The position numbers and the translations under genes are program-made. Source: an uncultured Verrucomicrobiota bacterium (GTDB taxonomy: Bacteria; Verrucomicrobiota; Verrucomicrobiia; Chthoniobacterales; JACTMZ01). Taken from it: a DNA stretch of 64,000 nucleotides. This document shows, piece by piece, positions 20,418 through 46,200 of this stretch. The stretch lies in contig CAJBKE010000055.1 in the NCBI GenBank assembly GCA_903953565.1, positions 65,957 through 129,956 of the forward strand. The letters run 5' to 3'. The notes below the pieces were generated by a model that had not been told where the DNA came from, did no database searches, and worked only from the letters and a program-made list of their open reading frames with translations. Numbering within the stretch: the first letter of the stretch is position 1; every line of letters starts with the position of its first letter.

Positions 20418-20456
20418 TCTCCCACGGAAGGATCCGTTGGAGTTTTTTCTTCCCAG

Positions 20457-20520
20457 GTAGGGTCGGCTGGCCTCTCCGAGCCGGAGGCTCTACGAGCAGG
20501 AGGCCAGCCGACCGCTGCAG
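20457..20520. repeat. R3-related palindromic element (possible recJ terminator)
   Basis: GGTCGGCTGGCCTC (20461-20474) pairs with GAGGCCAGCCGACC (20500-20513). The pair encloses CTCCGAGCCGGAGG and is followed by T7. The core resembles the copies at 26157, 26491, 30343 and 59479. Confidence 0.5.
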
Positions 20521-20582: not shown

Positions 20583-20611
20583 TTGCCAACCACGCAGGTC
20601 AGTGCTTAACT
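20583..20611 (+). promoter_or_regulatory. Candidate sigma70-type promoter for tRNA-Ala
   Basis: TTGCCA-N17-TTAACT, ending 14 nt before the tRNA 5' end. Confidence 0.35.
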
Positions 20612-20625
20612 CTCCCTCTAGTTTC

Positions 20626-20698
20626 GGGGTCATAGCTCAGTTGGTAGAGCGCCTCAATGGCATTGAGGAGGTCTGGGGTTCGAATCCCCATGGCTCCA
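20626..20698 (+). tRNA. tRNA-Ala (anticodon GGC)
   Basis: A 73-nt cloverleaf folds by hand: acceptor GGGGTCA/TGGCTCC with the G3:U70 Ala identity pair, anticodon arm CCTCA-atGGCat-TGAGG, T-arm TGGGG-TTCGAAT-CCCCA. CCA is not encoded. Confidence 0.9.
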
Positions 20699-20764
20699 CT
20701 CCCCAGGCTTTTTCGCCCCAAGAAAAAAGCGCGCCAAACCCGCGCCCCGCCATAATTCCTCTTT

Positions 20765-20832
20765 TCGACTCTTCGTCTTTCGTCTCTTGGTCGCTTAGTC
20801 TATCCGCGTCGATCCGCGTTAATCCGTGGCTA
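20765..20832. repeat. TCGTCTY/TTGGTCG heptads followed by an R1 tail (3 x 10-bp ATCCGYGNNN)
   Basis: tcgtctt tcgtctc ttggtcg cttagtc, then atccgcgtcg atccgcgtta atccgtggct a. The tail contains the GT26 stop codon. Confidence 0.6.
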
Positions 20833-21592
20833 AATCTTCTTCGTCCTTCAACCGCGCCACCGGACTTTTGTCCCGGTAACGCGCGACCATTCCAATCAAA
20901 GGCAACGCACTCCAATACCGCGGAATGAACTTCCTCGGCTCGTAAATGCAACGCATGAGCCATCCGAGCCCACTGCGGTCGGCCCACACCGGAATCTTCG
21001 CCTGCGTTCCCGCGAGAAAAGCTACCGCGGCACCCGTGCAAACAATACCCGGACACAGATCAAGCCGCTCCCGCAACCACGCGCCGAGCACTTCCTGCTT
21101 TCCACCCGCAAGATTGAGAAACACCACCCGCGGCTTCGCACTCTTCAGTCTCCGCAGCAGTTCTTCATCCTTGATCGGATACCCGCGGTAAAACGGCGCC
21201 ACATACATATTCCCCTCGTCCACCGGAAAACCCTGCGTCCGCAACCACTCCGCAATCTTCCGCCCCTCCTCCTCCGTCGGCATCACCCAAAACGCCACCC
21301 CCGGCTCCGCCAACGCCGGATCCGCCAAAATCGCCTCGAGAAACTTCAACCCCGAATGCCGCGGCACACTCTTGCCCGTCGCCGCGCGATACACCGCCAC
21401 CATCACTGCGCTATCAGTCAACGCCACATCCGCAGTTTCCACCGCATGCCGATAATCCGGAACACTTCGCAACTCATTGGCCAAGTTCGGACCCGACGGC
21501 GCGACCACGAGCCCGCCACGCCAAGTCTCCGCCACCGCCCCCTCCACAGAGCCGGTAAAAAACGGAATCCCTAAAATTCGTTCGCGCGCCAT
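20819..21592 (-). CDS. WecB/TagA/CpsF-family (GT26) glycosyltransferase
   Basis: ILGIPFFTGS.., VVFLNLAGGKQEVLGAW, GTGAAVAFLAGT and PRWM-like ..LGWLMRCIYEPRK blocks typical of GT26. Confidence 0.8.
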   Translation of the reverse strand: MARERILGIPFFTGSVEGAVAETWRGGLVVAPSGPNLANELRSVPDYRHAVETADVALTDSAVMVAVYRAATGKSVPRHSGLKFLEAILADPALAEPGVAFWVMPTEEEGRKIAEWLRTQGFPVDEGNMYVAPFYRGYPIKDEELLRRLKSAKPRVVFLNLAGGKQEVLGAWLRERLDLCPGIVCTGAAVAFLAGTQAKIPVWADRSGLGWLMRCIYEPRKFIPRYWSALPLIGMVARYRDKSPVARLKDEEDLATD

Positions 21593-21668
21593 GAAGCAGC
21601 GAAACCTAACGTCTTTCCCGGAAATAAAAAAGCGCGCTCATCGCGCGCTCCTTGCCTGTTATCTTGCC

Positions 21669-21813
21669 GGCTAAACCGCCGCCCGTCGGAACCGGAGGCC
21701 CGTCGGCCGTAGATGGCCCCATAGGCAATCACCCGACAGGCGGCACTCCCCCAGTCCGATCGGCTAACGGCCGTTCGGACATATCCGCGTTTATCTGCGT
21801 TAATCCGTGGCTA
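21669..21813. repeat. R1 element copy b (enlarged hairpin 1)
   Basis: GGCTAAACCGCC, then the 12-bp stem GCCGCCCGTCGG/CCGACAGGCGGC around a 44-nt loop, then GGCACTCCCCCAGTCCGATCGGC..GCCGTTCGGAC and three 10-bp units ending AATCCGTGGCTA. The terminal CTA is the stop codon of the next gene. Confidence 0.6.
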
Positions 21814-22377
21814 ATTCCTTCCGTCTTCGCTTTTCCATCGAGGACCTCGTTCGCTCGCCGGATTCCCCGCCACAATAGTATTCGCCGGGACATTCCGCGT
21901 GATCACAGAACCCGCCGCCGCCACCGCTTCTTCCCCGACCTCCACCCCCGGACCGACAAAAACCCCGGCTCCGATCCAAGCGCCACTGCCGATCGTGATC
22001 GGCGCATTGCGGTAGCTGAACTGCGGATCCCGGTAGTCATGGTTACCCGTGCAGAGAAAAGCTCGCTGAGAAATACACGCCTGCGCGCCGATCTTCACCG
22101 GTTCGAAATTCAGGATGAACACTTCTTCCCCGATCCACGCGTGATCACCCACCTTCAGTTTCCACGGGAAATGCACATTCACCCGCGGCTTGATCACCAC
22201 CCCCTCACCGACCTTCGCCCCGAACGCCCGCAGCAGCTTCGCTTTCAAGCCCATCGGCCAAGGCAATGCCGAAAGAAGAAACACACACTTCAGCAAATAC
22301 CACACCGCCTCGACCAACTTTGACCGCCCACGATCCAAGCCCTTCTCTGCATCGAACTGATCCAAACGCGTTTTCAT
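21811..22377 (-). CDS. Hexapeptide-repeat O-acetyltransferase (WcaF-like)
   Basis: LbH repeats IGAQACISQRAFLCTGNH, IGSGAWIGAGVFVGPGVEVGEEAV and the N-terminal membrane-associated segment resemble colanic-acid WcaF-type enzymes. Confidence 0.8.
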   Translation of the reverse strand: MKTRLDQFDAEKGLDRGRSKLVEAVWYLLKCVFLLSALPWPMGLKAKLLRAFGAKVGEGVVIKPRVNVHFPWKLKVGDHAWIGEEVFILNFEPVKIGAQACISQRAFLCTGNHDYRDPQFSYRNAPITIGSGAWIGAGVFVGPGVEVGEEAVAAAGSVITRNVPANTIVAGNPASERGPRWKSEDGRN

Positions 22378-22433
22378 GAAACAAAGTAGTCAGTCGTCAG
22401 GCAGCAGTAGTCGGTTGGGAAAGCGTCGACAGA

Positions 22434-22766
22434 TCACAGCAAATCGTCAACTTGTCGCCCCAGCGCCGGCAACTTTCGCATAATAACATCCCAAACGATG
22501 GCATCATCCACGCTGTCGTAGCCGTGAATCAGGCGGTTGCGAAAACTGATCATTTGCCGCGCATCAGGAACCTTCTCGAACACCTCCGGGAATCGATCGC
22601 GGAGGCGCGTGCAGGCTTCGCCTATCACTTCGAACTTCCGCTCCACCGCGGCACGGCATTTTCCATCTCGCGAGTAGGCCTCGAGATCTAGCCCGCGGGT
22701 GAAATCGCCGATATCATCCAGCGCCTGCCGGATATCGAGCAGAAGCTTGCTTCTCTCAGGCAGCAT
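22434..22766 (-). CDS. HepT-like (DUF86, HEPN) ribonuclease toxin
   Basis: The Rx4HxY motif is present in FRNRLIHGYDSV. The size is 110 aa and the gene overlaps the upstream MNT gene by 11 nt. Confidence 0.85.
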   Translation of the reverse strand: MLPERSKLLLDIRQALDDIGDFTRGLDLEAYSRDGKCRAAVERKFEVIGEACTRLRDRFPEVFEKVPDARQMISFRNRLIHGYDSVDDAIVWDVIMRKLPALGRQVDDLL

Positions 22767-23076
22767 AAATCAGCCGACTCGTCTCATCCACGATCCGGCG
22801 AAAAAACGGATTACGTATAGCTCTCGTTGTGACGAGGTCAACTGGACGATGGAAAATCTCCTCAAGCCCCTCCGCCAAGGCCATGTAACGATCGGCAATG
22901 CCGGGTTTGTCGCCATCGACAAAGTCGACTACCACATCGACGTCGCTGCGGGACTCATCAAATTTCTCCGTGGCAGCAGACCCGAAGAGACGAAGCTCAC
23001 GCACCGAAAGGTCGCGGCAGAGCTGCGCGACACGCGACTCGCCGCCTTCGAGAATGCCTTGGAATTCCTTTGTCAT
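22756..23076 (-). CDS. MNT minimal nucleotidyltransferase antitoxin (MntA-like)
   Basis: LRLFGSAATEKFDESRSDVDVVVDF carries the GS..DxD nucleotidyltransferase motif. Confidence 0.85.
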   Translation of the reverse strand: MTKEFQGILEGGESRVAQLCRDLSVRELRLFGSAATEKFDESRSDVDVVVDFVDGDKPGIADRYMALAEGLEEIFHRPVDLVTTRAIRNPFFRRIVDETSRLIYAA

Positions 23077-23158
23077 GTCTACCTAGCTCTCCTTACGCCA
23101 CACCTCACGAGCCCGCAAGCCCATCTCTTTCCTACTCAGAGCCTTCACCTCTGTCTTG

Positions 23159-23254
23159 GCGGGCAAACCGCCTCGAGCCGGGGTCACACGGCTCGAGGCA
23201 TTTCCCCAGTCCGTGCGGCTGTAAAGCCGCTCGAACTAATCCGCGTCTATCCGT
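23159..23254. repeat. R1 element copy c
   Basis: GGCGGGCAAACCG, then the perfect 10-bp hairpin CCTCGAGCCG-gggtcaca-CGGCTCGAGG (23171-23198), then CATTTCCCCAGTCCGTGCGGCT..AGCCGCTCGAAC and decamers. Confidence 0.65.
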
Positions 23255-23323
23255 GTTAATTTGGTCACAGCGGCGACCCGTCTCCGCTTCGCTCCGGCTG
23301 TGGCTAAACAACATGCATTTCAC

Positions 23324-23731
23324 TCAAGTCTCCAAATCAAGTTTCATCCCTCTCAACAGCACTGCTGTCGCCACCCATCCAACCAACGCCCCGCCAATCC
23401 CCCAGCAAGTCGCCGTCCAGTTGAAGTGCCGCGTCAGCACAAAGATCTGCGCGGAGTCCTTGGCAAACGGCGCGAACAGACACAGCGCAAACGACACCGC
23501 CTTCCACTCGGGTCGCAGTCCAGCAACCGCCCCTGCGCCAAAGACCGCCAGCAAAAAGAACGCCGGGAAGTTGCGCGTGTAGGCATGGAGCTCCAGATGA
23601 TACTTCAACCAATGCGGCAGGAATGGAATCGTCATCATCCGTCCGTCCTCACGCAGCGTGATCCAAGCATACGCCACCACCAGCACCACCAGCCCCGCTA
23701 GTGAGATGCCTCTGATAATGCCGGCTGTCAT
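23324..23731 (-). CDS. Hypothetical small membrane protein (about 4 TM helices)
   Basis: The hydrophobic segments GISLAGLVVLVVAYAW, FPAFFLLAVFGAGAVAGL, VSFALCLFAPF and WGIGGALVGWVATAVLL are visible. No recognisable motif. Confidence 0.45.
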   Translation of the reverse strand: MTAGIIRGISLAGLVVLVVAYAWITLREDGRMMTIPFLPHWLKYHLELHAYTRNFPAFFLLAVFGAGAVAGLRPEWKAVSFALCLFAPFAKDSAQIFVLTRHFNWTATCWGIGGALVGWVATAVLLRGMKLDLET

Positions 23732-23750
23732 TCGAATTACGCCAGGCCGC

Positions 23751-24011
23751 TCACCTGTAGACCTCTTTTCGATGAGCCACGCGAATGACCTCGATGATCA
23801 AAACGCGGCCGATTACCTCGTAGATCACGCGGTAGTCACCGACGCGAATACGATAGATGTGCTGGCTACCCGCCAACTTAGTGCATCCATCAGGCAATGG
23901 ATTTTCCGCCAGCGCCTCGACTGCCTCGATAATTCCGGGAATCTCATCGGGCCTGATCTTCCGAAGATCCTTCTTCGTCGATTTACGCCACGTGATCGCG
24001 TAGGAGGCCAT
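23751..24011 (-). CDS. RelE/ParE-family toxin
   Basis: ITWRKSTKKDLRKI.., YRIRVGDYRVIYEV..VLIIEVIRVAHRKEVY is typical of the RelE/ParE fold. Confidence 0.8.
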   Translation of the reverse strand: MASYAITWRKSTKKDLRKIRPDEIPGIIEAVEALAENPLPDGCTKLAGSQHIYRIRVGDYRVIYEVIGRVLIIEVIRVAHRKEVYR

Positions 24012-24186
24012 CGCGCTTCAATTCCGCCAAAAACTCCTCGTGCTTGATGGTTGGTTCCTCACGACGCTCCGCCACGGCAGCAAGATCCTCCATGTCTTCC
24101 ATAAATCTTGCGTAGTCCTCGATCGGCACGATGACAGCCGTCTTAGTCCCGTCTTCATCTGTCAAAAACTGGAGTGCCGTGCTCAT
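23983..24186 (-). CDS. Phd/YefM-like antitoxin
   Basis: DEDGTKTAVIVPIEDYARFMEDMEDLAAVAERREEP. The gene lies upstream of the RelE-type toxin and overlaps it. Confidence 0.65.
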   Translation of the reverse strand: MSTALQFLTDEDGTKTAVIVPIEDYARFMEDMEDLAAVAERREEPTIKHEEFLAELKRDGLLRDHVA

Positions 24187-24306
24187 GATTCACCTATTCG
24201 CATATCCGCCCGGAAAAGCCAGTTCGTTTTACCTCTTTGGAGGGCCAGGCTCCCCCAGAACCTCCGAAAGCCCCCTAGATTGCTCCAATCTCCACGCCGT
24301 TACTTT

Positions 24307-24374
24307 CCACTAGCCACCTTTGCACTCGCCACTGCGCGGTTTACGCGTTCGCTGCCTCCTCCGCGCAGCGCGAC
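24307..24374. repeat. Duplicate of the sequence around the 3' end of the mosaic GT4 gene (heptads CACTAGC CACC.. plus TTACGCGYTCGCTGCCTCC)
   Basis: ccactagccacct..gccactgcgcggtttacgcgttcgctgcctcc here matches tcactagtcacctgccaccgcgcgttttacgcgctcgctgcctcc at 25334-25380. Confidence 0.5.
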
Positions 24375-24602
24375 TCAAGCCGCAAACTCGTAGACTGGCG
24401 CTTCAATGCGCCGCACCGGCACGCTTTTGCCAGCAATGATCGCCTGCAATCTGTCGACGGTTTCGGGAGAGAAGAAAGCTTCGCCGGTTTCCTTCGAGAC
24501 CCGGGCGGGCACATGCTCGACGACAAACACCTCGCCGTCGCGCTCAAGAGTGTAAGTGATGAGTTTGTTTTCCATGGCAACGCGAGTGAAAACGGGCGCC
24601 AT
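24375..24602 (-). CDS. YgiT/MqsA-N-like small protein lacking the zinc cysteines
   Basis: LITYTLERDGEVFVVEHVPARVSKETGEAFFSPETVDRLQAII follows the YgiT-type zinc-ribbon pattern (..VVVxNVPAxVCxxCGExxxxxET..) but has no Cys. The start may instead be MENKL at 24575. Confidence 0.4.
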   Translation of the reverse strand: MAPVFTRVAMENKLITYTLERDGEVFVVEHVPARVSKETGEAFFSPETVDRLQAIIAGKSVPVRRIEAPVYEFAA

Positions 24603-24656
24603 AATTAACTATTGAGCTACTCTCATAGCTGCATGCTATCCGACGGAAGGTATCTT

Positions 24657-24950
24657 TCACGATCCAAATGGTCGCCGTCCGGCATACCGAATATGAGCTA
24701 TAACGACCTCCCCAAGCATAACGCGGTAAAAAATCAGGCATTTCTTGAAGTAAAGAAAACGGAATCCAGGACGAAACCTCCAAATAGGGAAGCGCTCGGG
24801 AGCCCCCTCTAACGACTCCGCCGCATCCAAGATGCCGCGCAAGTATTCGTCGGCGACCACATCACACGCAGAAGCCTCGAAGACGTCTTCACGAACCTTG
24901 ATCAAGTCGCGTGATGCGCGACTGGCGTAACGGACAACGTATTTACTCAA
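24657..24950 (-). CDS. ParE/RelE-family toxin
   Basis: YVVRYASRASRDLIKV.., FRFLYFKKCLIFYRV..VVIAHIRYAGR. There is a 4-nt overlap with the upstream small gene. Confidence 0.75.
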   Translation of the reverse strand: MSKYVVRYASRASRDLIKVREDVFEASACDVVADEYLRGILDAAESLEGAPERFPIWRFRPGFRFLYFKKCLIFYRVMLGEVVIAHIRYAGRRPFGS

Positions 24951-25159
24951 AGCCCCAGTGCCCGCCGGATTTCCTCCGGCGAATGCAGACGTCCGGCAGC
25001 AACATCGGCCTCTGCCTCCGCCAGCGCGGCATTTATTTCTGCACGCTCGCGAGCATCGACATTTTGCAGCGAGAGAAGCTCCTCAGCTGTTTCCTTGACC
25101 AAAGCCAACTCCTCGGCGCTCGCCTCGCTCAAATGCTCAAGAATTTCCAGCGCACTCAC
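24947..25159 (-). CDS. Putative antitoxin partner of ParE
   Basis: 70-aa acidic helical protein immediately upstream of, and overlapping, the ParE-type gene. Confidence 0.55.
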   Translation of the reverse strand: MSALEILEHLSEASAEELALVKETAEELLSLQNVDARERAEINAALAEAEADVAAGRLHSPEEIRRALGL

Positions 25160-25215
25160 TAACTACCTTATACTCTTTGAGGCAAAATCGGTCAATCCCG
25201 CGCCCTCTCGTTTAC

Positions 25216-25325
25216 GGACAAACCGCCTTACACTGAGGTCACTCGGTGCGAGGCATTTCATTAGTCCGAACGGCTGCAAGCCGCTCGGACCCCATCCGTG
25301 GCTATCCGCGTAAATCCGTGGCTAA
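25216..25325. repeat. R1 element copy d
   Basis: GGACAAACCGCC, then the hairpin CCTTACACTGAG-gtca-CTCGGTGCGAGG, then CATTTCATTAGTCCGAACGGCTGCAAGCCGCTCGGAC, then atccgtggct atccgcgtaa atccgtggct a. Confidence 0.65.
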
Positions 25326-25358
25326 AGTCTTTTCACTAGTCACCTGCCACCGCGCGTT

Positions 25359-27128
25359 TTACGCGCTCGCTGCCTCCGCCGCCCGCAATGCCTGCCGCGC
25401 GAAATTCTCACAACTGAACCTTTCCACAATCTCCCGCGACCGCCTCCCCATCTCCGTAATGCCGTCCGTCTCTTGGTCTTTTTGCCTCTTTGTCTTTTGG
25501 TCTGCGATGCGACGAAGCGCTTCGCTCAACGCATCGACCGAAGACGGATCAAAAACAAAGCCGTTGGAGCGTTGCTCCAACGGGCCGTCAGTGGCCGCAA
25601 GTCCTCCCAACTCTGCGCCCTTAGCGAACTTGGCGTGAGGCACCAGATCCTCCGCGCATCCAGCGGCGCGCGAGACGATCACCGGCAAGCCGGCTGCCAT
25701 CGCCTCATTCACCACAAGCCCCCATTCCTCTTTCAAACTCGGCAAGACAAACGCCTCCGCCAACGCATAGAACACCGGGTTCTCCTCAATCTGCCTGAAT
25801 CCATAGAAAAAAACCGCGCCGCGATCGTTTTCTAAGGAGTTTTCAGTGTTCGGTTTACAGTTTTGGATAAGGCCCGTCTCGCAAAGCCTCGGCTCAGCCT
25901 GACTCTGCAGACCCTCGCAGCCTGCTCGGGTCACCGAGCTGGCTGCATTCCCCTCAGTCCGATCGGCTGCAAGCCGCTCGGACTTATCCGTGTTAATCCG
26001 TGTTAATCCGTGGCCCGTCTTTTCCACTCTCACATCTGTCCTATCCACAACGCGCAAGCCCAGTCCCCGCGCCTGCTCCCGCAACGCCCTCTCAAGCTCC
26101 CCACTGCCCACAAAAACTAGCGCCACTGGTGTGTGACGAGTGTCGGTCGTCTCTCTGACTCCATGCTCCCTGCTCCTCTCCGACCCGTAAGGTCTACGAG
26201 CTGGAGGGCCAGCTCCATGCTTTTCACCGCTCGCACGCGCGAATCGCGCGTAGGCCTCGACGAGCGTTGAAAGATTCTTCTTCTCCACCATCCGCCCTAG
26301 ACTCAGGAAATAACGCTGAGGAAGACCGTAGGTCTTCCGAAAATCTGAAAAACCGAGCCGAGGCTTTGCGAGACAGCCCTTAGGCAAATTCTGAAACACT
26401 GAAACACTGTCTTCCCCTCCCTCTGACTGACCCCTGTCCCCCGACCCCTGTCTCCCTTCCTGCTCAGCCCCCGAGGCCTCCGGCCGCTCTTGCTCCACGC
26501 TCCGTGCTCCATGCTCCTCTCCGACCCGTAGGTTCTCCGAGCCGGAGGGCATGCTGCGCACTTCGTCCGCTTTCGCGGCGAAGAGCGCATTATCCACCGC
26601 ATCATACCCCGTGAAAATTTTGTCAGCCGGGATGCCGAGCGAAGCAAAGTGACGCTTGTGCGGCTCGCCGCCGACGAGGGCGGCATCGAACTGCTTCACG
26701 ATCTGACGCTTGATCCAACGCTTCCATCCGGTCGCCTGTTCCGTGCCCGCATGGCTTTCATTCATCATCACCGTCCGGATCCCGAGGGACTTGGCTGCGG
26801 CGAAGAGCGCGAAATAGCGCGCCGGCGAATAGCTCGGAAGAAAAGCCACATCAACCTTCTCCTCACGAAACAACTTCCGCGCCTTCAGGAACACATCGAA
26901 CGGCGAAGCCGCCTCCTCCACCCCATCACACAAAGTCTTGAGTCCAGCACACCTATTACCAGCTACCTGCGACTCGTTACCTTCATTCCACTCATACGTC
27001 GTCGTCGCTCCTGCAATCTGAACCGGAACCACGCGTACACCCTGTTCGGCAGCCGCCCTCTGCGATGCCACCACGCGGGCATGGTGGTAAGGCCCAAACT
27101 GGCCAAAAAAAATAGCGATGCTGCGCAT
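25359..27128 (-). CDS. GT4-family (GT-B) glycosyltransferase carrying several in-frame repeat-element insertions
   Basis: Start set at MRSIAIFFGQFGPYHH; the track start 27263 lies inside R1 copy f. GT4 blocks present: YFLSLGRMVEKKNLSTLVEAY, LVFVGSGELERAL, FVLPSLKEEWGLVVNEAMAAGLPVIVS, NGFVFDP. These blocks are separated by segments built from R1, R3, R4 and heptad DNA. The ORF is 589 aa versus roughly 350-400 aa typical for GT4. Confidence 0.75.
   Translation of the reverse strand: MRSIAIFFGQFGPYHHARVVASQRAAAEQGVRVVPVQIAGATTTYEWNEGNESQVAGNRCAGLKTLCDGVEEAASPFDVFLKARKLFREEKVDVAFLPSYSPARYFALFAAAKSLGIRTVMMNESHAGTEQATGWKRWIKRQIVKQFDAALVGGEPHKRHFASLGIPADKIFTGYDAVDNALFAAKADEVRSMPSGSENLRVGEEHGARSVEQERPEASGAEQEGRQGSGDRGQSEGGEDSVSVFQNLPKGCLAKPRLGFSDFRKTYGLPQRYFLSLGRMVEKKNLSTLVEAYARFARASGEKHGAGPPARRPYGSERSREHGVRETTDTRHTPVALVFVGSGELERALREQARGLGLRVVDRTDVRVEKTGHGLTRINTDKSERLAADRTEGNAASSVTRAGCEGLQSQAEPRLCETGLIQNCKPNTENSLENDRGAVFFYGFRQIEENPVFYALAEAFVLPSLKEEWGLVVNEAMAAGLPVIVSRAAGCAEDLVPHAKFAKGAELGGLAATDGPLEQRSNGFVFDPSSVDALSEALRRIADQKTKRQKDQETDGITEMGRRSREIVERFSCENFARQALRAAEAASA
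25865..26014. repeat. R1 element copy e, complete, inside the GT4 reading frame
   Basis: Hairpin GCAGCCTGCTCGG-gtca-CCGAGCTGGCTGC (25917-25946), then CATTCCCCTCAGTCCGATCGGCTGCAAGCCGCTCGGAC, then atccgtgtta atccgtgtta atccgtggcc. It is translated as ..GHGLTRINTDKSERLAADRTEGNAASSVTRAGCEG.. Confidence 0.7.
26157..26220. repeat. R3 element copy b (in frame in GT4)
   Basis: gactccatgctccctgctcctctccgacccgtaaggtctacgagctggagggccagctccatgc, read as KHGAGPPARRPYGSERSREHGV. Confidence 0.65.
26391..26554. repeat. R4 heptad block (CTGAAAC../CCCTGTC..) fused to R3 copy c (in frame in GT4)
   Basis: ctgaaacactgaaacactgtcttcccctccctctgactgacccctgtcccccgacccctgtctccc.. followed by ..tgctccacgctccgtgctccatgctcctctccgacccgtaggttctccgagccggagggcatgc. 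It is read as SGSENLRVGEEHGARSVEQ..GRQGSGDRGQSEGGEDSVSVFQ. Confidence 0.65.
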
Positions 27129-27175
27129 TAAGTGAGGAGCCTTTGGCTCCGTGCTTTCATCTGTTTTCTGACTAA

Positions 27176-27286
27176 GGACAAACCGTCGCCTGTCGAGGCC
27201 ATCCGACAGGCGGCATTCCCCCCCTGTCCGATCAGCTGCAAGCCGCTCGGACCTTATCCTCATCCATCCGCGTCAATCCGTGGCTA
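27176..27286. repeat. R1 element copy f (fills the Wzy-GT4 intercistronic gap)
   Basis: GGACAAACCGT, then the perfect 9-bp hairpin CGCCTGTCG-aggccatc-CGACAGGCG (27187-27212), then GCATTCCCCCCCTGTCCGATCAGCTGCAAGCCGCTCGGAC, then decamers ending AATCCGTGGCTA. The tail contains the Wzy stop codon. Confidence 0.7.
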
Positions 27287-28688
27287 CAACTCCCCGGATC
27301 GACCTTCTCTGATTCCGCGCCGACCCTGCATTCAGCTTCGCGCTACGCCCAAACCACCAAGCTAACGCCACGATCGGAATCATCGCGTAAAGCATCTGGT
27401 AAAAATACTGCCAGAGGAAAAACCGCGTCAGGAACATCGCGTTCACCGTCACAATCCCAATCAAGCAATATTGGACGTAGCCACGCGGCATGGTGAGCAC
27501 ATACCAGTCAAGCCACGACAGGAGATATCCGAGCATGAACATCGAAAGCAGCATCCACAGCAAACCGCCATCGCGCAGAAACATTCCCGCGATTCCAGGC
27601 GAGTAAGGCGCACCTCGCGTGAACGTCATGTCCATCGTTATTCCCTGCTTCGGCTTGCCCTGCCACAGTGCCCGCGGCACGAAATGCAGGGGCACATATA
27701 GCCAAGACCACGCATAAGGCTTGTATGCTGGCTCGGTCTCTTTCGCCGCGACAAACGTGTCGAAGATATTCATGTCACCATCTGAATCGTAAAACTTCCA
27801 GTAAGCCTCACCTAAAGTGCGTTCTTCAAACACTGAATTAACCATGCCCTCTTCCGCTATCCGCTCATTCTCGGCGCCGCGAGTCTGCCCTAAATATTGG
27901 AAGAAGGGTTGCAGCACCACGATCGGTAAAATCAACCACGCATACCCCACCCTTCCTTGAAGCCTTTGTAAAACGGCAATGCCGGCAATCATCACTCCCG
28001 CGACGTAAAAACCTCGAAATAACGTTACATCACGCATCAGCCACGTGAACATTAGGAATAGCACCACCGAAACACTGAGCACCATCACGGTTCCTAGTGT
28101 CTTGCGTCGTAGGAATCCCTCGAACAGCACGACCACGGTTATGATGTGCACTGCCTGCAGCGGCATGGGCAAATCATAAACATACGCGCCAAAAGCGCTG
28201 CCGTAGAGCGAGCGCCCCCCCCGCGCGAGATAGAACATCACAGGCAACGTCGTCACCTGAAAAGCCAGCAATGCGGCACACACCTTTTGGCTCACCAAGG
28301 GTCGCAAGCTTTCCGCATTGTTCAGCGCACGACGCCGCCGGAGCCACCTAATGTGTAGACGTGGAAAAATGGCTGCCCCCAAAGCAAAGCAAACAAGCGC
28401 AGCGCTAGCCCACCATAAACCGTCGGTTATCTCATTCAACCCTACCCGCATTTGGAATAACCGCGTGAACAGCGTGTAATCTTTCTCCAACAACATATAA
28501 ACAGGCCGCACTCCAAAAAACAGAAACGACATAAATATGAACGCACCTGCCCCTGTCACCTGCTTACGATGGATTTCGCCGAGCAAAAGCACGAGTTGAC
28601 TCCCTACCAGCAGCCAGACCGAAGCCACCGTTCCAACAAGTGGATAAGCAGCCAGCAGGAGGAAAACAGCGGCAAAAACAAAGTTCAT
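27273..28688 (-). CDS. Polytopic membrane protein, probable O-antigen/EPS repeat-unit polymerase (Wzy-like)
   Basis: More than 10 predicted TM helices with one large hydrophilic loop (..ENERIAEEGMVNSVFEERTLGEAYWKFYDSDGD..). The locus context includes a Wzx and GT genes. No strict motif was found. Confidence 0.6.
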   Translation of the reverse strand: MNFVFAAVFLLLAAYPLVGTVASVWLLVGSQLVLLLGEIHRKQVTGAGAFIFMSFLFFGVRPVYMLLEKDYTLFTRLFQMRVGLNEITDGLWWASAALVCFALGAAIFPRLHIRWLRRRRALNNAESLRPLVSQKVCAALLAFQVTTLPVMFYLARGGRSLYGSAFGAYVYDLPMPLQAVHIITVVVLFEGFLRRKTLGTVMVLSVSVVLFLMFTWLMRDVTLFRGFYVAGVMIAGIAVLQRLQGRVGYAWLILPIVVLQPFFQYLGQTRGAENERIAEEGMVNSVFEERTLGEAYWKFYDSDGDMNIFDTFVAAKETEPAYKPYAWSWLYVPLHFVPRALWQGKPKQGITMDMTFTRGAPYSPGIAGMFLRDGGLLWMLLSMFMLGYLLSWLDWYVLTMPRGYVQYCLIGIVTVNAMFLTRFFLWQYFYQMLYAMIPIVALAWWFGRSAKLNAGSARNQRRSIRGVVATD

Positions 28689-29823: not shown

Positions 29824-31050
29824 TTAGTCTCCCGCAGCGTAGCGCAGCAGAGCTGGCGCAAGATGCCTTGGGTGAAACTTGTCCGGAACACGTGCATTCG
29901 ACTGGAGCTTTTCCAGAATCTCCCGATCGCGCACAAGCGCCATGATCGCCTCGGCGATCGCTTCAGGCGAGATCTCCGGCAGCACTAGGCCATTCACGCA
30001 GTCTTCCACCACGAGCCCGCAATGCGTGGAAGCAACCACTGGCAGCCCATGGCCCAGCGCCTCAAGCTGCGTTAGACCAAAGCCATCCGAAAGGGTGGGA
30101 AAAAGGAATACATCAGACGCCCGATACAGCCTCTCGACCGTCGCTTTGTCCACCGGACCAAGAAAGCGCACGTTCGACAGCTGCGAGATCTCGTCCGGAA
30201 TCTTTACCCCAAGCGGACCAGCGAAGGTGAAGTCCACCGGCTCATTCTTCAGCATCCTGATCGCATCGAACAGCTGCCCTACCCCCTTCCGCAAAATCAC
30301 GCTCCCGAGAAACAAGGCCCGCAGCCGCGTATCGGGTCTCTTCTCCATGCTCCACGCTCCTCTCCGACCCGTAGGTTCTCCGAGCCGGAGGACATGCTCC
30401 ATGCTGCCGCTGGCCTCATAGACCAGCGGCACCTCCACGAGCTTCGCGGCACTTACCCCCGCTTCGATCCAGTTTCTTTTCGACCACTGGGAGTTCACGA
30501 TGATCTTATCCGCCATCTCGATTTCCCGCCGGAGGCCATCCCAATACTCTTTGGGCGCATCGATAGTTTGTCCGAGGTCCAAGGCCAGGTAGTTCGCCGC
30601 CGCGCGGCGCGTGATATCTTCCTCCATCCAGGCGAGATCGATCAGATCGAGAACGCAACGCATACCCTTCCTGCGCGCCACTTCAAAAGGCCACTGGGCG
30701 TTGTAGCTGTAAGAGAAAACTGTTTTCCCATCGACCACCTCAAGTTGATTAGCGCACCATTTGCCAAACCAGCTGATACGATACATACACGTCTGCCACG
30801 AACTCATGTGCTGCAACCTTACCCGAGCCTCGTAAACGAAGCGTCCCGCATTGGCGCGACGCACAAGTGCATCCGGAATCTGTGTGCTCCGGCGTGCTGC
30901 AATATTCGGGGCCAACGGCTTGAGTAGCTTTGCCTCACCAGCCGTCACCCAACTGTCCGCGAGCAGTGCAGAGAGCTTGCCTTCTTTGTGCAAAGCCGCC
31001 GGCACGGCGTAGTGCTCCCGCGATCCTAGTTGGCAGCAGATCCAAGACAT
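29824..31050 (-). CDS. GT4-family glycosyltransferase with one in-frame R3 insertion
   Basis: ALFLGSVILRKGVGQLFDA, VFLFPTLSDGFGLTQLEALGHGLPVVAS, NGLVLP. The insert MEHVLRLGEPTGRRGAWSME lies just before the C-terminal domain. Confidence 0.8.
   Translation of the reverse strand: MSWICCQLGSREHYAVPAALHKEGKLSALLADSWVTAGEAKLLKPLAPNIAARRSTQIPDALVRRANAGRFVYEARVRLQHMSSWQTCMYRISWFGKWCANQLEVVDGKTVFSYSYNAQWPFEVARRKGMRCVLDLIDLAWMEEDITRRAAANYLALDLGQTIDAPKEYWDGLRREIEMADKIIVNSQWSKRNWIEAGVSAAKLVEVPLVYEASGSMEHVLRLGEPTGRRGAWSMEKRPDTRLRALFLGSVILRKGVGQLFDAIRMLKNEPVDFTFAGPLGVKIPDEISQLSNVRFLGPVDKATVERLYRASDVFLFPTLSDGFGLTQLEALGHGLPVVASTHCGLVVEDCVNGLVLPEISPEAIAEAIMALVRDREILEKLQSNARVPDKFHPRHLAPALLRYAAGD
30343..30404. 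repeat. R3 element copy d (in frame in GT4)
   Basis: ctccatgctccacgctcctctccgacccgtaggttctccgagccggaggacatgctccatgc. Confidence 0.65.
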
Positions 31051-39980: not shown

Positions 39981-40091
39981 CTCTAAACTTTTAGCAAATT
40001 GAACATGCCGTTTGGTAAATAATCCAAGTCAACAAGGAGATCAGGCCTTGCTCTGCGCTTTTCCTAGGTTTGAGGATGACTTCAACATTTT

Positions 40092-40130
40092 CCCCTAAGA
40101 CGAGCCGCCAGATGGATTTGTTATGCTTAC
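40092..40130 (-). promoter_or_regulatory. R2 box copy a: GCATAAC-N17-CGTCTTA (minus-strand sense), ECF-sigma-like promoter candidate upstream of wzx
   Basis: Minus-sense -35-like GCATAAC (40126-40120), a 17-nt spacer, then -10-like CGTCTTA (40102-40096). It lies about 115 nt upstream of the wzx start. The 39-nt core is conserved in three copies. Confidence 0.45.
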
Positions 40131-40198
40131 TTGCTATCGACTTTCACAAATTCGCAGCTAACCAGCAGCGAACTGCGGCTAAACACGACCATGCTCAA

Positions 40199-42234: not shown

Positions 42235-42326
42235 GGCTAACGGCGCTTAAGATGTTTCCGACAATATGCATGTTCAGTGAGTAGTGCTCCTGCCTCTCAA
42301 ATACTGGAGCACGAATTCAAACTCTG

Positions 42327-42365
42327 CCCGTAAGACGAGCCGCCGGGTGGATTTGTTGTGCTCAC
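42327..42365 (-). promoter_or_regulatory. R2 box copy b: GCACAAC-N17-CGTCTTA upstream of the acyltransferase gene
   Basis: Minus-sense GCACAAC (42361-42355), a 17-nt spacer, then CGTCTTA (42337-42331). It lies about 97 nt upstream of ATG 42234. Confidence 0.45.
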
Positions 42366-42500
42366 TTTTTGATAGATCACGGGGTGATCAGCATGGAGCG
42401 TGGAGCGCGGAGCCTGGAGCGGTTCCGGCTGAACACTGCAAACTGAACACTGGAAACTCCTCTTCTGTTCCTCCGTAAGAGCCAGTCTCCTAAGTCAGCG
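42366..42500. repeat. Composite spacer: GATCAC-ggg-GTGATC hairpin, (NNNGGAG)4 heptads, CTGAACA/CTGCAAA heptads
   Basis: gatcacggggtgatc agcatggag cgtggag cgcggag cctggag.. ctgaaca ctgcaaa ctgaaca ctggaaa. The first 45 nt recur at 46021-46060. Confidence 0.55.
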
Positions 42501-43170: not shown

Positions 43171-44447
43171 ACGCGACATGCTGAAATTACCTGATCCGCA
43201 ATCTGATCCCAGCTGTAACTCTTCTCCACCAACTCTCTCCCCCTCAATCCCCTTTCCGCGCGCTCCGCGTCCTCTGCGGTTAGAGCACTTCTTAAAGTCT
43301 TTTCTACGGAATCTAGTTCCGGACGACTCTCCCAAGCGCCACCCGCGGCCGTGAGTTCCGGGAAATTGCACTCATCCGTCTGCACCACCGGAATGCGATG
43401 CGCCGCCGCTTCCAGCACCGCCATCGGGAATCCCTCGGAATAGGAGGGCAACACAAACAAATCCGCCGTGCGTAACAGCGCATGCTTCTCCGGCCCTGAA
43501 ACCGCCGGATGGATCCAACACGTCTCCGAGCATCCACAGTCCGCAATCATCTTCTCCACCGTCGCCTGATATCCCCCTTCATCCGGACCCACGATCAACA
43601 ACTCCCAATCCGGAAACTCTTTGCTCAACTTCCCCCAAGCCGGCACCAACAAATCCAGCCCCTTCTTCGCATGAATCCGGGACAGGAAAAGCAGGCGCTT
43701 GGGCCGGCGCCGCCGCATCCAAGCGCCGTAGCGGGTAGAAAGTTGCGAGTCACTGGTCTTTGTATCTCCGACTGAAACACTGTCCTTCCGAAACACCGAG
43801 GCCCCCGGCCAACCCTGTCCCCTTCCTCCTGTCTCCTGTTTCCCTTCGTGCGCGTCGAGCTCATCGACTTCGTCGATGTCGATGCCGTTCGGAATCACAT
43901 GCACGACCGCATGCGATCCGACGACCGCACGAATCTGCTCCGCCTCCTTGTTCGACACAGCGCGCCACCAACGGACGTGAGCGATGTTTTTATCTTCGAA
44001 CAGCCAATGCGCGAGGCGCTTTTTACCCCGCGAGCGGCGGAGGATCCACGGATCGAAAAATCCCTGCGGATGGTAAACCAGCGGCTTGCCACGTTTCCGC
44101 GCCTCGCCCCCGAGCCACATATTGGTCCAAACGTAGAGCCCATGACCATGAAACCACTCCGCCTGTTCCACCGCCTCCGCCGCAAGTCGCTTCAACTCCG
44201 GTGCATAACAAGCCTTCGCCGGCCCCTTGCGAACCCCCTGGATGACATCGGGCCAAGTCCGATGAAAATCCGCCGCTCGCGTCGCGAGCAGCAAGGATTT
44301 CGAGGCATGGGCAAAATCCGAACCCTGACTACTGCCACCTGACGACTGCCAACTCTTACCTCGCATAGCGAGGTGAAGAGACAACGCCGCCTGCCCCAAC
44401 CCCGCCCCCTGCAGCGGCTCGAGCGATTGAACAAAATGTAAGTGCAT
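43167..44447 (-). CDS. GT4-family glycosyltransferase with one in-frame R4 insertion
   Basis: RLLFLSRIHAKKGLDLL, LFVLPSYSEGFPMAVLEAAAHRIPVVQT. The insert KQETGGRGQGWPGASVFRKDSVSVGDTKTSDSQ lies before the C-terminal domain. Confidence 0.8.
   Translation of the reverse strand: MHLHFVQSLEPLQGAGLGQAALSLHLAMRGKSWQSSGGSSQGSDFAHASKSLLLATRAADFHRTWPDVIQGVRKGPAKACYAPELKRLAAEAVEQAEWFHGHGLYVWTNMWLGGEARKRGKPLVYHPQGFFDPWILRRSRGKKRLAHWLFEDKNIAHVRWWRAVSNKEAEQIRAVVGSHAVVHVIPNGIDIDEVDELDAHEGKQETGGRGQGWPGASVFRKDSVSVGDTKTSDSQLSTRYGAWMRRRRPKRLLFLSRIHAKKGLDLLVPAWGKLSKEFPDWELLIVGPDEGGYQATVEKMIADCGCSETCWIHPAVSGPEKHALLRTADLFVLPSYSEGFPMAVLEAAAHRIPVVQTDECNFPELTAAGGAWESRPELDSVEKTLRSALTAEDAERAERGLRGRELVEKSYSWDQIADQVISACRV
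43766..43846. repeat. R4 heptad element (in frame in GT4)
   Basis: ctccgactgaaacactgtccttccgaaacaccgaggcccccggccaaccctgtccccttcctcctgtctcctgtttccc is related to 26391-26480. Confidence 0.6.
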
Positions 44448-44448
44448 T

Positions 44449-44503
44449 GCGCGTGCTTCACCCGCGCAGTGGCGAGTACGAAGGTTAAAGGTTAAAAGTA
44501 ACG
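44449..44503. repeat. F1: 55-nt leader element directly upstream of the GT4 ATG (direct repeat of F2)
   Basis: The hairpin gcgcgtg-cttca-cccgcgc, then ..ggttaaaggttaaaagtaacg. It is about 80 percent identical to 44752-44806. Confidence 0.6.
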
Positions 44504-44567
44504 CCGGCCTACAGAGAAAACCGCGTCATTCCGCTCCAATTTTCGACTTTGTGCGCGACGCAACAGC

Positions 44568-44740
44568 CTTCGTGGGGGGCACCACATGTCATGTTGCTGG
44601 CCGCACGAAGCATGTTGCTGCGCGCACGAACTTCGTGGTGGCCACCACATGTCATGTTGCTAGCTGCACAAAGCATGTTGCTGGTCGCACATAGTTCGTG
44701 GTGGCCCCCACAAGGCTTGTTGCCAGTCGCACATGGTCAT
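44568..44740. repeat. Tandem array: 63-bp unit x ~2.8, each unit made of three related 18-24-bp sub-units (GCACNAAGCATGTTGCTGGYC-like)
   Basis: Unit starts are at 44568, 44631 and 44694. Sub-unit starts are at 44579, 44603, 44624, 44642, 44666, 44687, 44705 and 44729. The array contains CTTCGTG/CACGAAG inverted repeats and the palindrome CACGAAcTTCGTG. Confidence 0.7.
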
Positions 44741-44751
44741 CATTCAGCAGG

Positions 44752-44806
44752 GCGCGGGCTTCACCCGCGCTGTAGCGGGTGGGAATGTAAAAGGTAAAAA
44801 GTAACG
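44752..44806. repeat. F2: second copy of the F1 leader element
   Basis: GCGCGGG-cttca-CCCGCGC is a perfect 7-bp hairpin, followed by ..tgtaaaaggtaaaaagtaacg. Confidence 0.6.
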
Positions 44807-44824
44807 ACGCGATCCGAATGGAGC

Positions 44825-45862: not shown

Positions 45863-45963
45863 ACCATTGCAATCCTAAGCAGCATCAGGCCCAAAGCAAA
45901 CCGATAGATAGACCCGCTAGTCCTCCATGCACACCACATCGACGACAATGACTGCAAAATTTC

Positions 45964-46002
45964 CCCGTAAGACGAACCGCCAGACGGATTTGTTGTGCTC
46001 AC
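45964..46002 (-). promoter_or_regulatory. R2 box copy c: GCACAAC-N17-CGTCTTA upstream of the UPF0175-MNT-HEPN block
   Basis: Minus-sense GCACAAC (45998-45992), a 17-nt spacer, then CGTCTTA (45974-45968). It lies about 106 nt upstream of ATG 45862. Confidence 0.45.
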
Positions 46003-46200
46003 TTTTTCCATCTTCAAACGTAGATCACGGCGTGATCAGCATGGAGCGTGGAGCTCGGAGCAGATTAGACTAAAAAACCGAACACCGAAGACTGAGCTGA
46101 GGCTCTGCGTCCCCGTCTTTCTTTCTTTAGTTTCTTGGTCTTTTAGTCCCCGCGGCTCTGTGTCTCAGTGAGAACTAGGCTCTTAGCCCCGCGAGGTTAG
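46003..46200. repeat. Composite heptad-rich spacer (GATCAC-ggc-GTGATC hairpin, NNNGGAG heptads, CCGAACA/CCGAAGA, TCTTGGTCTTTTAGTC words)
   Basis: It shares tagatcacggNgtgatcagcatggagcgtggagc with 42372-42410 and tcttggtcttttagt with 49010-49050 (reverse complement), 20780 and 25470. Confidence 0.5.

What the first reader, a model, noticed from the sequence alone, without database searches (positions are those of the whole stretch)
20801..27286. R1: a ~100-nt two-hairpin element with a 3 x 10-bp tail, six co-oriented copies in 6.5 kb, always just 3' of minus-strand genes
The copies are 20801-20832 (tail only), 21669-21813, 23159-23254, 25216-25325, 25865-26014 and 27176-27286. On the given strand the architecture is GGACAAACCG, hairpin 1, GGCATTCCCC, hairpin 2 (GTCCGATCGGCT-gca-AGCCGCTCGGAC, about 12 bp), then three tandem decamers ATCCGYGNNN ending AATCCGTGGCTA. 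Hairpin-1 stems have different sequences in each copy yet are each self-complementary: CCTCGAGCCG/CGGCTCGAGG at 23171-23198, CGCCTGTCG/CGACAGGCG at 27187-27212, and GCAGCCTGCTCGG/CCGAGCTGGCTGC at 25917-25946. They often enclose a GTCA loop. The structure is therefore conserved while the sequence is not. Five of the six copies begin 0-70 nt after the stop codon of a minus-strand gene (GT26, WcaF-like, membrane protein, mosaic GT4, Wzy); the sixth, copy e, lies inside the mosaic GT4 ORF. In mRNA sense R1 is therefore a 3'/intercistronic element. It could be a REP/BIME-like transcript stabiliser or insulator, or a protein-binding site, since the decamer phasing equals one helical turn. I cannot match it to a described repeat family.
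Basis: seen in the sequence. Interest (0 to 1): 0.65.

Follow-up and report, generated by a model that had tools for sequence, protein, structure and literature searches.

The report
Sense-oriented palindromic repeat in polysaccharide locus
R1 is a real, previously undescribed ~100-nt two-hairpin repeat found only in the cell-surface-sugar gene clusters of a few uncultured Verrucomicrobia; it behaves like a small insertion element that is transcribed, and in places translated, with its host genes, but one hairpin is conserved too well to be mere junk.

Summary
Six co-oriented copies lie at 20801-27286 and nowhere else in the 64 kb. The architecture is as described: three 10-nt repeats, a sequence-invariant 12-bp hairpin 2, and a hairpin 1 whose stem varies but stays paired (11 of 13 pairs change on both sides; 0 of 500 shuffles match).

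The REP/BIME interpretation is only partly supported:
- R1 is not a genome-wide family. Scans of 185,579 genomes, 241 million metagenome contigs and 1.84 billion proteins find it only in polysaccharide loci of a few Chthoniobacterales.
- Close relatives with the same gene backbone lack it.
- It sits between ancestral stop codons and ancestral terminators.
- It has entered glycosyltransferase ORFs in frame at three or more sites, always in sense orientation.
- It is mixed with other small modules.

It is not an attC site, a tagged REP, a terminator or any Rfam family, and it does not travel with the toxin-antitoxin cassettes beside it.

Hairpin 2 is constrained at nucleotide level: all 9 synonymous sites are identical in six species, against 37% of sites elsewhere in the gene.

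Best reading (confidence 0.42): a low-copy modular insertion element that is co-transcribed, with a hairpin-2 core recognised by an unknown partner.

The parts
20801..20832 (-). R1 copy a: tail only (three decamers). The WecG stop codon (20819-20821) lies inside it.
   Evidence: nhmmer, model positions 1-33
20726..20748 (-). Intrinsic terminator downstream of copy a. Not part of R1; it marks the end of the transcription unit.
21669..21813 (-). R1 copy b, long form with branched hairpin 1. Hairpin 2 is at 21754-21780. The hexapeptide-transferase stop codon (21811-21813) is the TAG of the tail.
21632..21646 (-). Ancestral GCGCGC-type terminator about 25 nt downstream of copy b. The same terminator is present in relatives that lack R1 at this site.
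23159..23306 (-). R1 copy c. Hairpin 1 is at 23171-23198 and hairpin 2 at 23209-23236. The tail is interrupted at about 23255-23300 by an M2-like module, and the TTAGCC start is at 23301-23306.
25216..25325 (-). R1 copy d. Hairpin 2 is at 25264-25290. It lies 34 nt after the GT4 stop and 57 nt before the ParE2 antitoxin start.
25916..26014 (-). R1 copy e. Hairpin 1 is at 25917-25946 and hairpin 2 at 25957-25983. It is translated in frame inside the GT4 ORF as GHGLTRINTDKSERLAADRTEGNAASSVTRAGC.
25862..25915 (-). M2-like module abutting copy e. It is one arm of the 34-nt inverted repeat 25862-25895 / 26355-26388.
27176..27286 (-). R1 copy f. Hairpin 1 is at 27187-27212 and hairpin 2 at 27226-27252. 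The Wzy-like gene's stop codon (27273-27275) lies inside the tail.

Best explanation
R1 is a low-copy, modular, non-autonomous palindromic insertion element. It is one module of a mosaic-repeat system in a clade of freshwater Chthoniobacterales (Verrucomicrobiota).

Shown:
- R1 entered polysaccharide-biosynthesis loci at a dozen or so independent sites, always in the sense orientation.
- Copies survive where they do not destroy a gene. These are the last few codons of a gene (two of the three sense frames reach a stop within 15 nt of the tail), the space between a stop codon and a pre-existing terminator, and permissive protein loops entered in the one fully open frame.
- The hairpin-2 core is kept nearly invariant.

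Inferred:
- Once inserted, R1 is transcribed with the operon.
- Its two GC-rich hairpins have no U-tract, so they should not terminate transcription. They would act as barriers to 3'-5' exonucleases or as processing sites, as REP/BIME hairpins do.
- The invariance of hairpin 2 means a sequence-specific partner recognises it, either a protein acting on DNA or RNA, or the machinery that copies the element.
- The variable hairpin-1 stem is kept paired mainly by templated palindrome correction or recombination between copies, not by stepwise RNA-level compensation.
For: Restricted and patchy distribution:
- True R1 occurs in only 3 of the MAGs hit in 185,579 species genomes, and in 7 of the 19 metagenome stretches that matched the hairpin-2 core.
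- Only 9 of 1.84 billion representative proteins match its translation, and the real matches with an identifiable gene are glycosyltransferases.
- L057 and L058 share the backbone Wzy-GT4-Mem135-MNT/HepT-Hexa-WecG but have no R1. L060 lacks it after Hexa.

Insertion signature:
- Copy b lies between the Hexa stop region and a terminator that is also present at the empty sites.
- Genes end inside the tail.
- There are in-frame copies at three or more sites in two glycosyltransferase genes.
- The GT4 frame is open in 6 of 6 intragenic copies but in only 5 of 18 intergenic ones.

Mosaic behaviour:
- Module M2 replaces or splits the tail.
- Module M3 follows R1 in two different genes.

Orientation: every copy found is in gene sense.

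Constraint on hairpin 2:
- Mean pairwise identity is 0.93, against 0.65 for the hairpin-1 stem.
- Inside GT4, all 9 synonymous third positions are identical in six species. Elsewhere in the gene 37% of such sites are identical in all six, giving p of about 1e-4.

Hairpin 1:
- Covariation is strong.
- There is no sense-strand G.U excess, and arm hybrids such as L050_1 differ by 3-base blocks.
Against: - A mobile element should be dispersed through a genome, yet R1 is found only in polysaccharide loci.
- No transposase, recombinase or autonomous parent element was found.
- No target-site duplication could be defined, and the terminal inverted repeats are only 5-6 nt.
- Orthologous copies at the same site in several species (for example copy e) show the insertions are old. 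Neutral decay of hairpin 2 would then be expected. Its invariance fits a host function better than a selfish one.
- Whole-element folding slightly favours the sense strand (56 G.U pairs against 21), mainly because of the basal stem.
- No transcript data exist, so the effect on mRNA is inferred only.
Confidence: 0.42

Rival explanations
1. R1 is a dedicated cis-acting RNA element of polysaccharide operons. A sense-strand structured site would be bound by a specific factor that controls processing, stability, read-through of the downstream terminators, or translation. The three GGAU-containing decamers and hairpin 2 would be the binding platform.
For: - Orientation is exclusively sense, and R1 is restricted to polysaccharide loci.
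- Hairpin 2 and the hairpin-1 loop are nearly invariant while the stems covary.
- Nucleotide-level constraint holds even inside a coding region.
- Many copies lie about 25 nt upstream of intrinsic terminators.
- The basal U.G wobble is present in 15 of 19 copies in sense.
Against: - R1 is absent from close relatives with the same operon and the same terminators.
- Copies lie inside ORFs and overlap stop codons.
- The hairpin-1 stem has more A.C (13) than G.U (5) in sense.
- There is no Rfam match.
- No NusG/RfaH-like or RNA-binding gene was found among the ORFs examined.
Confidence: 0.27
2. R1 is a DNA-level binding or recombination site for an unlinked recombinase or transposase. Hairpin 2 would be a 10-7-10 core with an asymmetric centre. 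The phased CGGAY repeats would be accessory (arm-type) sites. Together they would mediate the gain, loss or shuffling of segments of the locus.
For: - CGGAY lies at -27, -17, -7 and +22, and inverted RTCCG at 0 and +72, relative to hairpin 2.
- The asymmetric centre TTGCA is invariant.
- All copies are direct repeats.
- Gene content between copies differs among relatives, and gene 3' ends are duplicated.
- The locus abuts tRNA-Ala or comM, both classic integration hotspots.
Against: - The TA cassettes move as bare operons whose homology ends outside R1.
- Cassette turnover is just as high in R1-free loci.
- No recombinase was found in the window or in the related loci examined.
- The core does not occur in viral contigs.
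- Covariation in hairpin 1 is not expected for a duplex binding site.
Confidence: 0.17
3. R1 is a decaying remnant with no present activity or function. Its apparent conservation would come from recent horizontal exchange of the locus and gene conversion among the copies.
For: - Occurrence is patchy, with truncated and interrupted copies (a, c, e) and hybrid arms.
- R1 is dispensable in relatives.
Against: - Flanking coding DNA is 15-25% diverged, and third positions are about 31% diverged, yet hairpin 2 is invariant in six species.
- Gene conversion within a genome does not slow divergence between species.
Confidence: 0.1
4. R1 copies are integron-type attC sites marking gene cassettes.
For: - Copies are co-oriented at the 3' ends of genes.
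- TA genes lie between copies.
- The sequence is variable but hairpins are conserved.
- GATTAAC and GTTTGTC loosely resemble the R'' and R' boxes.
Against: - The tail and the 3' end do not pair with each other. There are two independent hairpins rather than one long bulged stem.
- Segments between copies hold several backbone genes, not single cassettes.
- No integrase was found.
- Cassette boundaries are not in R1.
Confidence: 0.02

Closest known systems
REP / BIME elements of Enterobacteria and Pseudomonas (GTAG- and CGTC-tagged REP superfamilies, PMC3733652)
   Same: - GC-rich imperfect palindromes of about 27 nt, lying after stop codons and co-transcribed.
- Combined with other motifs into mosaics.
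- Occasional intragenic units.
- The expected effect is protection of upstream mRNA from 3' exonucleases.
   Different: - No GTAG or CGTC tag.
- No head-to-head dimers. All copies are in one orientation.
- A handful of copies confined to one type of locus, instead of tens to thousands dispersed.
- No RAYT found.
- An extra three-decamer tail and a second, covarying hairpin.
Rickettsia palindromic elements (RPE)
   Same: Palindromic elements of 100-150 nt that insert in frame into protein-coding genes. They are translated as tolerated loop insertions, and they also occur in intergenic DNA.
   Different: RPEs are dispersed over many unrelated genes of a genome. R1 is seen only in glycosyltransferase genes and gene ends of polysaccharide loci. 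There is no sequence similarity, and the phylum is different.
Neisseria intergenic mosaic elements (NIME: RS units with dRS3) and pneumococcal BOX elements
   Same: - Modular composites of short repeat units in varying combinations.
- Clustered in particular intergenic regions next to variable or cassette-like genes.
- Predicted stable secondary structure.
   Different: - The unit sequences and architecture differ.
- dRS3 belongs to the CGTC-tagged class, and R1 has no such tag.
- NIME and BOX elements are numerous genome-wide.
- R1 also occurs in frame within ORFs.
EAR (eps-associated RNA) and other operon-internal antitermination elements of polysaccharide operons (own knowledge; Irnov and Winkler 2010)
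   Same: A structured, sense-oriented element inside a long exopolysaccharide operon, upstream of internal terminators.
   Different: - No similarity to any Rfam model, at gathering or relaxed thresholds.
- Multiple copies per operon.
- Absent from sister operons that keep the same terminators.
- No cognate factor identified.
Integron attC sites
   Same: Located at the 3' ends of co-oriented genes. Structure is conserved more than sequence in part of the element. TA genes are nearby.
   Different: - No R''/R' pairing.
- Two separate hairpins.
- No integrase.
- Cassette boundaries lie elsewhere.

Membership tests
REP (GTAG/CGTC-tagged palindromic repeats) | Unpaired GTAG or CGTC tetranucleotide at one end of the stem-loop | tested here: not met
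   Hairpin 2 is preceded by TAAG, ATAG or ATGG in gene sense and by CTCA on the other strand. No GTAG or CGTC tag occurs in any of 24 copies. Definition taken from PMC3733652.
REP (GTAG/CGTC-tagged palindromic repeats) | Tens to thousands of copies dispersed through the genome, often as inverted dimers | tested here: not met
   No copies lie in the other 57 kb of the window. In GTDB genomes the hits fall only on the homologous locus of 3 MAGs. All copies are direct, none inverted.
REP (GTAG/CGTC-tagged palindromic repeats) | Associated RAYT (IS200/IS605-like) transposase flanked by the repeats | not testable with these tools
   No complete genome of an R1-bearing organism is available. No transposase was seen among the ORFs examined.
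Integron attC | R''-L''...L'-R' boxes that pair into one long bulged hairpin | tested here: not met
   Single-sequence and consensus folds give two independent hairpins. The tail stays unpaired, and the 3' end pairs with the linker, not with the tail.
Integron attC | Array adjacent to an intI integrase, with one cassette per site | tested here: not met
   No tyrosine recombinase was found among ORFs from 16.7 to 54 kb. Intervals between copies hold one to eight genes, counting the small unnamed ORFs, and include conserved backbone genes.
Intrinsic (Rho-independent) terminator | GC-rich hairpin directly followed by a U-run | tested here: not met
   Hairpin 2 is followed by UGAGGGG and hairpin 1 by GGUUUGUCC. 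The scan reports separate terminators downstream of copies a and b, not the R1 hairpins themselves.
Rickettsia-type palindromic elements (works-like comparison) | In-frame insertion into ORFs, kept translatable | tested here: met
   Copy e and its orthologues in five other loci keep the frame open (6 of 6). The peptide is present in many GT4 orthologues and at two further sites in a second glycosyltransferase.
MITE | Terminal inverted repeats and a target-site duplication | tested here: inconclusive
   Only a 5-6-nt inverted motif is present (CGGAY at the 5' end, RTCCG at +72). TTAGCC flanks copy b on both sides, but the other copies have TTTGTCC at the 3' end. Filled and empty sites are too diverged to define a duplication.
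Any Rfam family (including EAR/epsC and known sRNAs) | Covariance-model match | tested here: not met
   Only tRNA-Ala reaches the gathering score in the window. Relaxed search of 20700-27400 gives only chance-level hits with E of 0.8 or more.

The most novel reading that the evidence does not exclude
R1 is not junk. It is a portable cis-site with a dedicated trans-acting partner specific to polysaccharide loci. The partner could be, for example, an RNA-binding or antitermination factor, or a recombinase. Hairpin 2 and the phased GGAU/CGGAY repeats would be under purifying selection wherever the element sits, even when it is translated inside a glycosyltransferase. This would be a mobile regulatory module that plugs new genes into a locus-wide control circuit.
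Probability: 0.25. Interest if true: 0.65.

Novelty: new variant of a known kind. Interest (0 to 1): 0.4.

Why it matters
Small palindromic repeats are usually studied as abundant, genome-wide families. R1 shows a different pattern. It has few copies, a single orientation, and is confined to surface-polysaccharide loci of an uncultured verrucomicrobial clade. It is able to sit at gene ends or to be translated inside enzymes.

It also gives a clean natural experiment. The same 27-nt hairpin is held invariant at synonymous sites in six diverged species, which implies a recognisable partner that could be searched for.

It also cautions annotators. The 'mosaic' GT4 proteins of 395-632 aa in this clade owe their length differences to in-frame repeat modules, not to domain fusions.

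Tried and rejected
1. attC/integron reading: rejected on the fold, the cassette boundaries and the absence of an integrase.
2. R1 as the att or recombination site carried by the TA cassettes: rejected. The ParE2 and AbiE-like operons are shared between loci only over the operon itself, and R1-free loci have equally variable TA content.
3. R1 coupled to the GCGCGC terminator as one regulatory unit: rejected. The terminator is ancestral and is present at empty sites.
4. Phage or plasmid att site: the hairpin-2 core has no hit in viral contigs.
5. Strain-level presence/absence using L001-L004: these loci are at least 99.97% identical to the window with no indels, so they are uninformative.
6. L054 as an empty site for copy d: it turned out to be a replacement of about 750 bp by about 400 bp of other sequence, not a clean insertion.
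7. Strand-of-function test by G.U versus A.C: the whole-element fold favours the sense strand, the hairpin-1 stem does not. Inconclusive.
8. Word-indexed protein search with a 42-aa consensus translation: returned nothing for technical reasons and cost one search. It was replaced by the exhaustive HMMER search.
9. Operon-specific NusG/RfaH-like factor: none was detected among the ORFs tested.
10. tRNA-derived origin (weak resemblance of the tail to the tRNA-Ala 3' end, and of hairpin 2 to a class II tRNA D-arm): no tRNA-model hit on R1 even at relaxed thresholds. Treated as chance.
11. A 5-codon mini-ORF (ATG-N12-TGA) in hairpin 1: present in only about half of the copies and explained by the fixed arm length. 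Not pursued.

Full report
**1. The observation**

The region 20600-27500 contains the six copies at the stated coordinates, all in one orientation.
- The hairpin-2 pattern GTCCGNNCGGCTNNNNGCCGNTCGGAC, with up to 3 mismatches, occurs at four sites (eight strand-hits). The expectation from shuffles is 0.01.
- The terminal 12-mer AATCCGTGGCTA occurs 14 times against 3.96 expected, and every perfect match lies in R1.
- A profile built from the copies finds R1 nowhere else in the 64 kb.

In gene sense (minus strand) the element reads as follows:
- TAGCCACGGATT-NNN-CGCGGAT-NNN-CGCGGAT (three 10-nt repeats);
- hairpin 2: GTCCGAGCGGC-TTG-CAGCCGATCGGAC;
- a linker: TGAGGGGAATGCC;
- hairpin 1: a variable stem with loop GUGAC;
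- GGCGGTTTGTCC.

Each copy folds into the two hairpins.

- Copy c extends to 23306, because another short module splits its first decamer.
- Copy b is a long form with a branched hairpin 1.
- The 25862-25915 part of 'copy e' is a different module.
- Hairpin 2 always has exactly one central mismatch.

**2. Setting**

The window carries one long minus-strand polysaccharide cluster running from about 52 kb down to 20.8 kb.
- It encodes a flippase, GT2 and GT4 glycosyltransferases, a pyruvyl transferase, acyltransferases, UDP-galactopyranose mutase, an epimerase, a Wzy-like protein, WecG and others.
- It ends against a convergent tRNA-Ala and recJ.
- Toxin-antitoxin pairs are interspersed among the last genes: HepT/MNT, ParE/RelB, and a second ParE pair.
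- The organism is an uncultured freshwater Chthoniobacterales (Verrucomicrobiota). The same contig recurs at 99.97-100% identity, with no indels, in several metagenomes, and the related MAGs are so named.

**3. Distribution**

- An exact scan of one genome per species (185,579 species) with the hairpin-2 pattern gave 33 stretches. Most were single chance matches in GC-rich genomes. True R1 occurs in three verrucomicrobial MAGs only. In the MAG with several copies they all lie on one contig, at the homologous locus.
- A scan of 241 million metagenome records with the hairpin-2 core gave 19 stretches. Seven hold true R1, and those with identifiable neighbouring genes are homologues of this locus; the short L043 contig has none identified.
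- An exhaustive HMMER search of 1.84 billion representative proteins with the translation of copy e gave nine hits at E of 0.001 or less. The genuine ones with an identifiable gene are glycosyltransferases; one 70-aa hit (P0121) has no known context.
- No viral contig carries the core.

R1 is therefore a rare element specific to one kind of locus. It is not a genome-wide REP-like family.

**4. R1 is dispensable and was inserted**

- Two relatives (L057, L058) share the backbone Wzy-GT4-Mem135-MNT/HepT-Hexa-WecG and are full of toxin-antitoxin genes, yet have no R1. Others (L059, L060) have it at only some of the positions.
- The GCGCGC-type terminator after the hexapeptide-transferase gene is present in R1-free loci. 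In the window and in L011, copy b sits between the stop region and that terminator, and the gene's last codons run into the R1 tail.
- Two of the three sense frames of the tail reach a stop within 15 nt. The third frame is open through the whole element.
- That open frame is the one in which copy e is read inside GT4. It is open in all six intragenic copies but in only 5 of 18 intergenic copies.
- The R1 peptide (GHGLTRI..SERLAADRT..) is present in many GT4 orthologues and absent from others.
- R1 also occurs in frame at two further positions in a second glycosyltransferase.

Every copy found, at a dozen or so distinct sites, is in gene sense.

**5. R1 is one module of a mosaic**

- In relatives the decamer tail is split or replaced by a ~31-nt module (M2), inserted after TTAGCCAC. 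The same module forms an inverted pair inside GT4 in the window.
- Intragenic R1 copies in two different genes are followed by the same further module.
- Another repeat is inserted in frame in two GT4 genes of the window.
- Orthologues of the GT4 range from about 395 to 632 aa because of such in-frame inserts at about six loops.

**6. Relation to the toxin-antitoxin cassettes**

- The ParE2 operon is shared between the window and L053 only from about 15 nt before its start codon to its stop. R1 is not part of the shared unit.
- An AbiE-like operon is 95% identical between L018 and L059/L060, in unrelated contexts. Homology again ends at the operon, and R1 lies 3' of it in one case and 5' of it in the other.

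R1 is therefore not the recombination site of these cassettes. They simply land in the same intergenic spaces.

**7. Structure and constraint**

- On 19 short-form copies, hairpin 1 shows changes on both sides in 11 of 13 pairs (35 cells). None of 500 column shuffles reaches this, and slid controls give 1-4 pairs. RNAalifold recovers both hairpins.
- Hairpin 2 never covaries. It is simply invariant (mean pairwise identity 0.93, against 0.65 for the hairpin-1 stem), as is the hairpin-1 loop (0.95).
- Inside GT4, the nine synonymous third positions of hairpin 2 are identical in six species. The rest of the gene has 69% pairwise third-position identity, and only 37% of such sites are identical in all six. 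This gives p of about 1e-4.

So the sequence of hairpin 2 is constrained at the nucleotide level.

The strand of action is unresolved:
- Whole-element folds favour the sense strand (56 G.U pairs against 21; sense folds better in 13 of 20 copies), mainly through the basal stem.
- Within the hairpin-1 stem, A.C mismatches (13) outnumber G.U (5), and most non-pairs are other mismatches.
- Some copies are arm hybrids that differ by 3-base blocks. This fits templated palindrome correction or recombination better than stepwise RNA compensation.

A CGGAY motif lies at -27, -17, -7 and +22, and its inverse RTCCG at 0 and +72, relative to hairpin 2. This arrangement is compatible with phased protein binding on DNA.

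**8. Comparison with known systems**

- R1 matches no Rfam model.
- It lacks the GTAG/CGTC tag and the dispersal that define REP superfamilies.
- It does not fold like an attC site and has no integrase nearby.
- Its hairpins lack the U-run of terminators.
- In behaviour it is closest to three known kinds of element:
  - Rickettsia palindromic elements (in-frame, translated insertions);
  - BIME, NIME and BOX mosaics (modular composites at gene ends);
  - REP hairpins, for its likely effect on the transcript.
- It differs from all of them in copy number, locus restriction and strict orientation.

**9. Verdict**

The REP/BIME analogy fails on membership, and an RNA-level constraint on hairpin 1 is not demonstrated.

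The best explanation (confidence about 0.42) is a low-copy modular insertion element. It is co-transcribed, and sometimes translated, with polysaccharide genes, and its hairpin-2 core is recognised by an unknown partner.

A dedicated cis-regulatory RNA (0.27) and a DNA recombination or binding site (0.17) remain live alternatives. The main obstacle is the lack of a complete genome and of transcript data.

Noticed in passing
window 26159-26221, 26500-26562, 30343-30405 (weaker copy at 20455-20510): A second repeat family (CTCCATGCTCC..CTCCGACCCGTAGG..GAGCCGGAGG) is inserted in frame in two different GT4 genes. It contributes the 'MEHGA..SGDRGQSEGG'-type low-complexity stretches seen in the orthologues.
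   Followed up: partly
window 25862-25895 / 26355-26388; 23255-23300; L011, L053, L018: A ~31-nt module (AGCCGAGTCTGCGAGACAGCCGAAGGCAAAT) forms a 34-nt inverted pair inside GT4. It is also found inserted after 'TTAGCCAC' of the R1 tail at several independent places, so it looks like a separate small insertion element that targets R1.
   Followed up: partly
proteins P0001-P0120 (orthologues of window 25359-27131): Orthologues of this GT4 range from about 395 to 632 aa because of hypervariable in-frame inserts at about six surface loops. The inserts are translations of repeat modules. This may be a clade-wide phenomenon in Chthoniobacterales.
   Followed up: partly
L018 1646-2549 versus L059 8876-9778 and L060 8593-9492; window 24655-25175 versus L053 3778-4290: Toxin-antitoxin operons (an AbiE-like one at 95% identity, and ParE2 at 80%) occur in unrelated positions as bare operons. 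No flanking homology or recognisable site is shared, so how they move is unexplained.
   Followed up: partly
window 24323-24364 and 25341-25382: The 3' end of the GT4 gene and its downstream small hairpin are duplicated 1 kb apart (86% identity), bracketing copy d, the ParE2 pair and orf75. This is a possible footprint of an insertion that regenerated the gene end.
   Followed up: no
L022 746-1409 (same contig as L011): A chimeric ORF joins a ChlI/ComM C-terminal fragment to WecG fragments, followed by R1, a PIN toxin gene, a second R1, and then the intact comM-like gene. This is evidence of rearrangement at the WecG/comM junction.
   Followed up: no
window 40072-40132, 42307-42367, 45944-46004; 42373-42413, 46021-46061; 44444-44809; 49058-49140 / 49644-49726: Several other short repeat families lie in the upstream half of the cluster: a 61-nt unit in three copies, a 41-nt unit in two copies, a 63-nt tandem, and an 83-nt pair at 96% identity. 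None was characterised.
   Followed up: no
R1 hairpin 1, e.g. window 23171-23205: About half of the copies contain a 5-codon mini-ORF (ATG-N12-TGA, e.g. MPRAV*) running from the linker ATG to the TGA of the conserved loop. It is probably a by-product of the fixed arm length.
   Followed up: no
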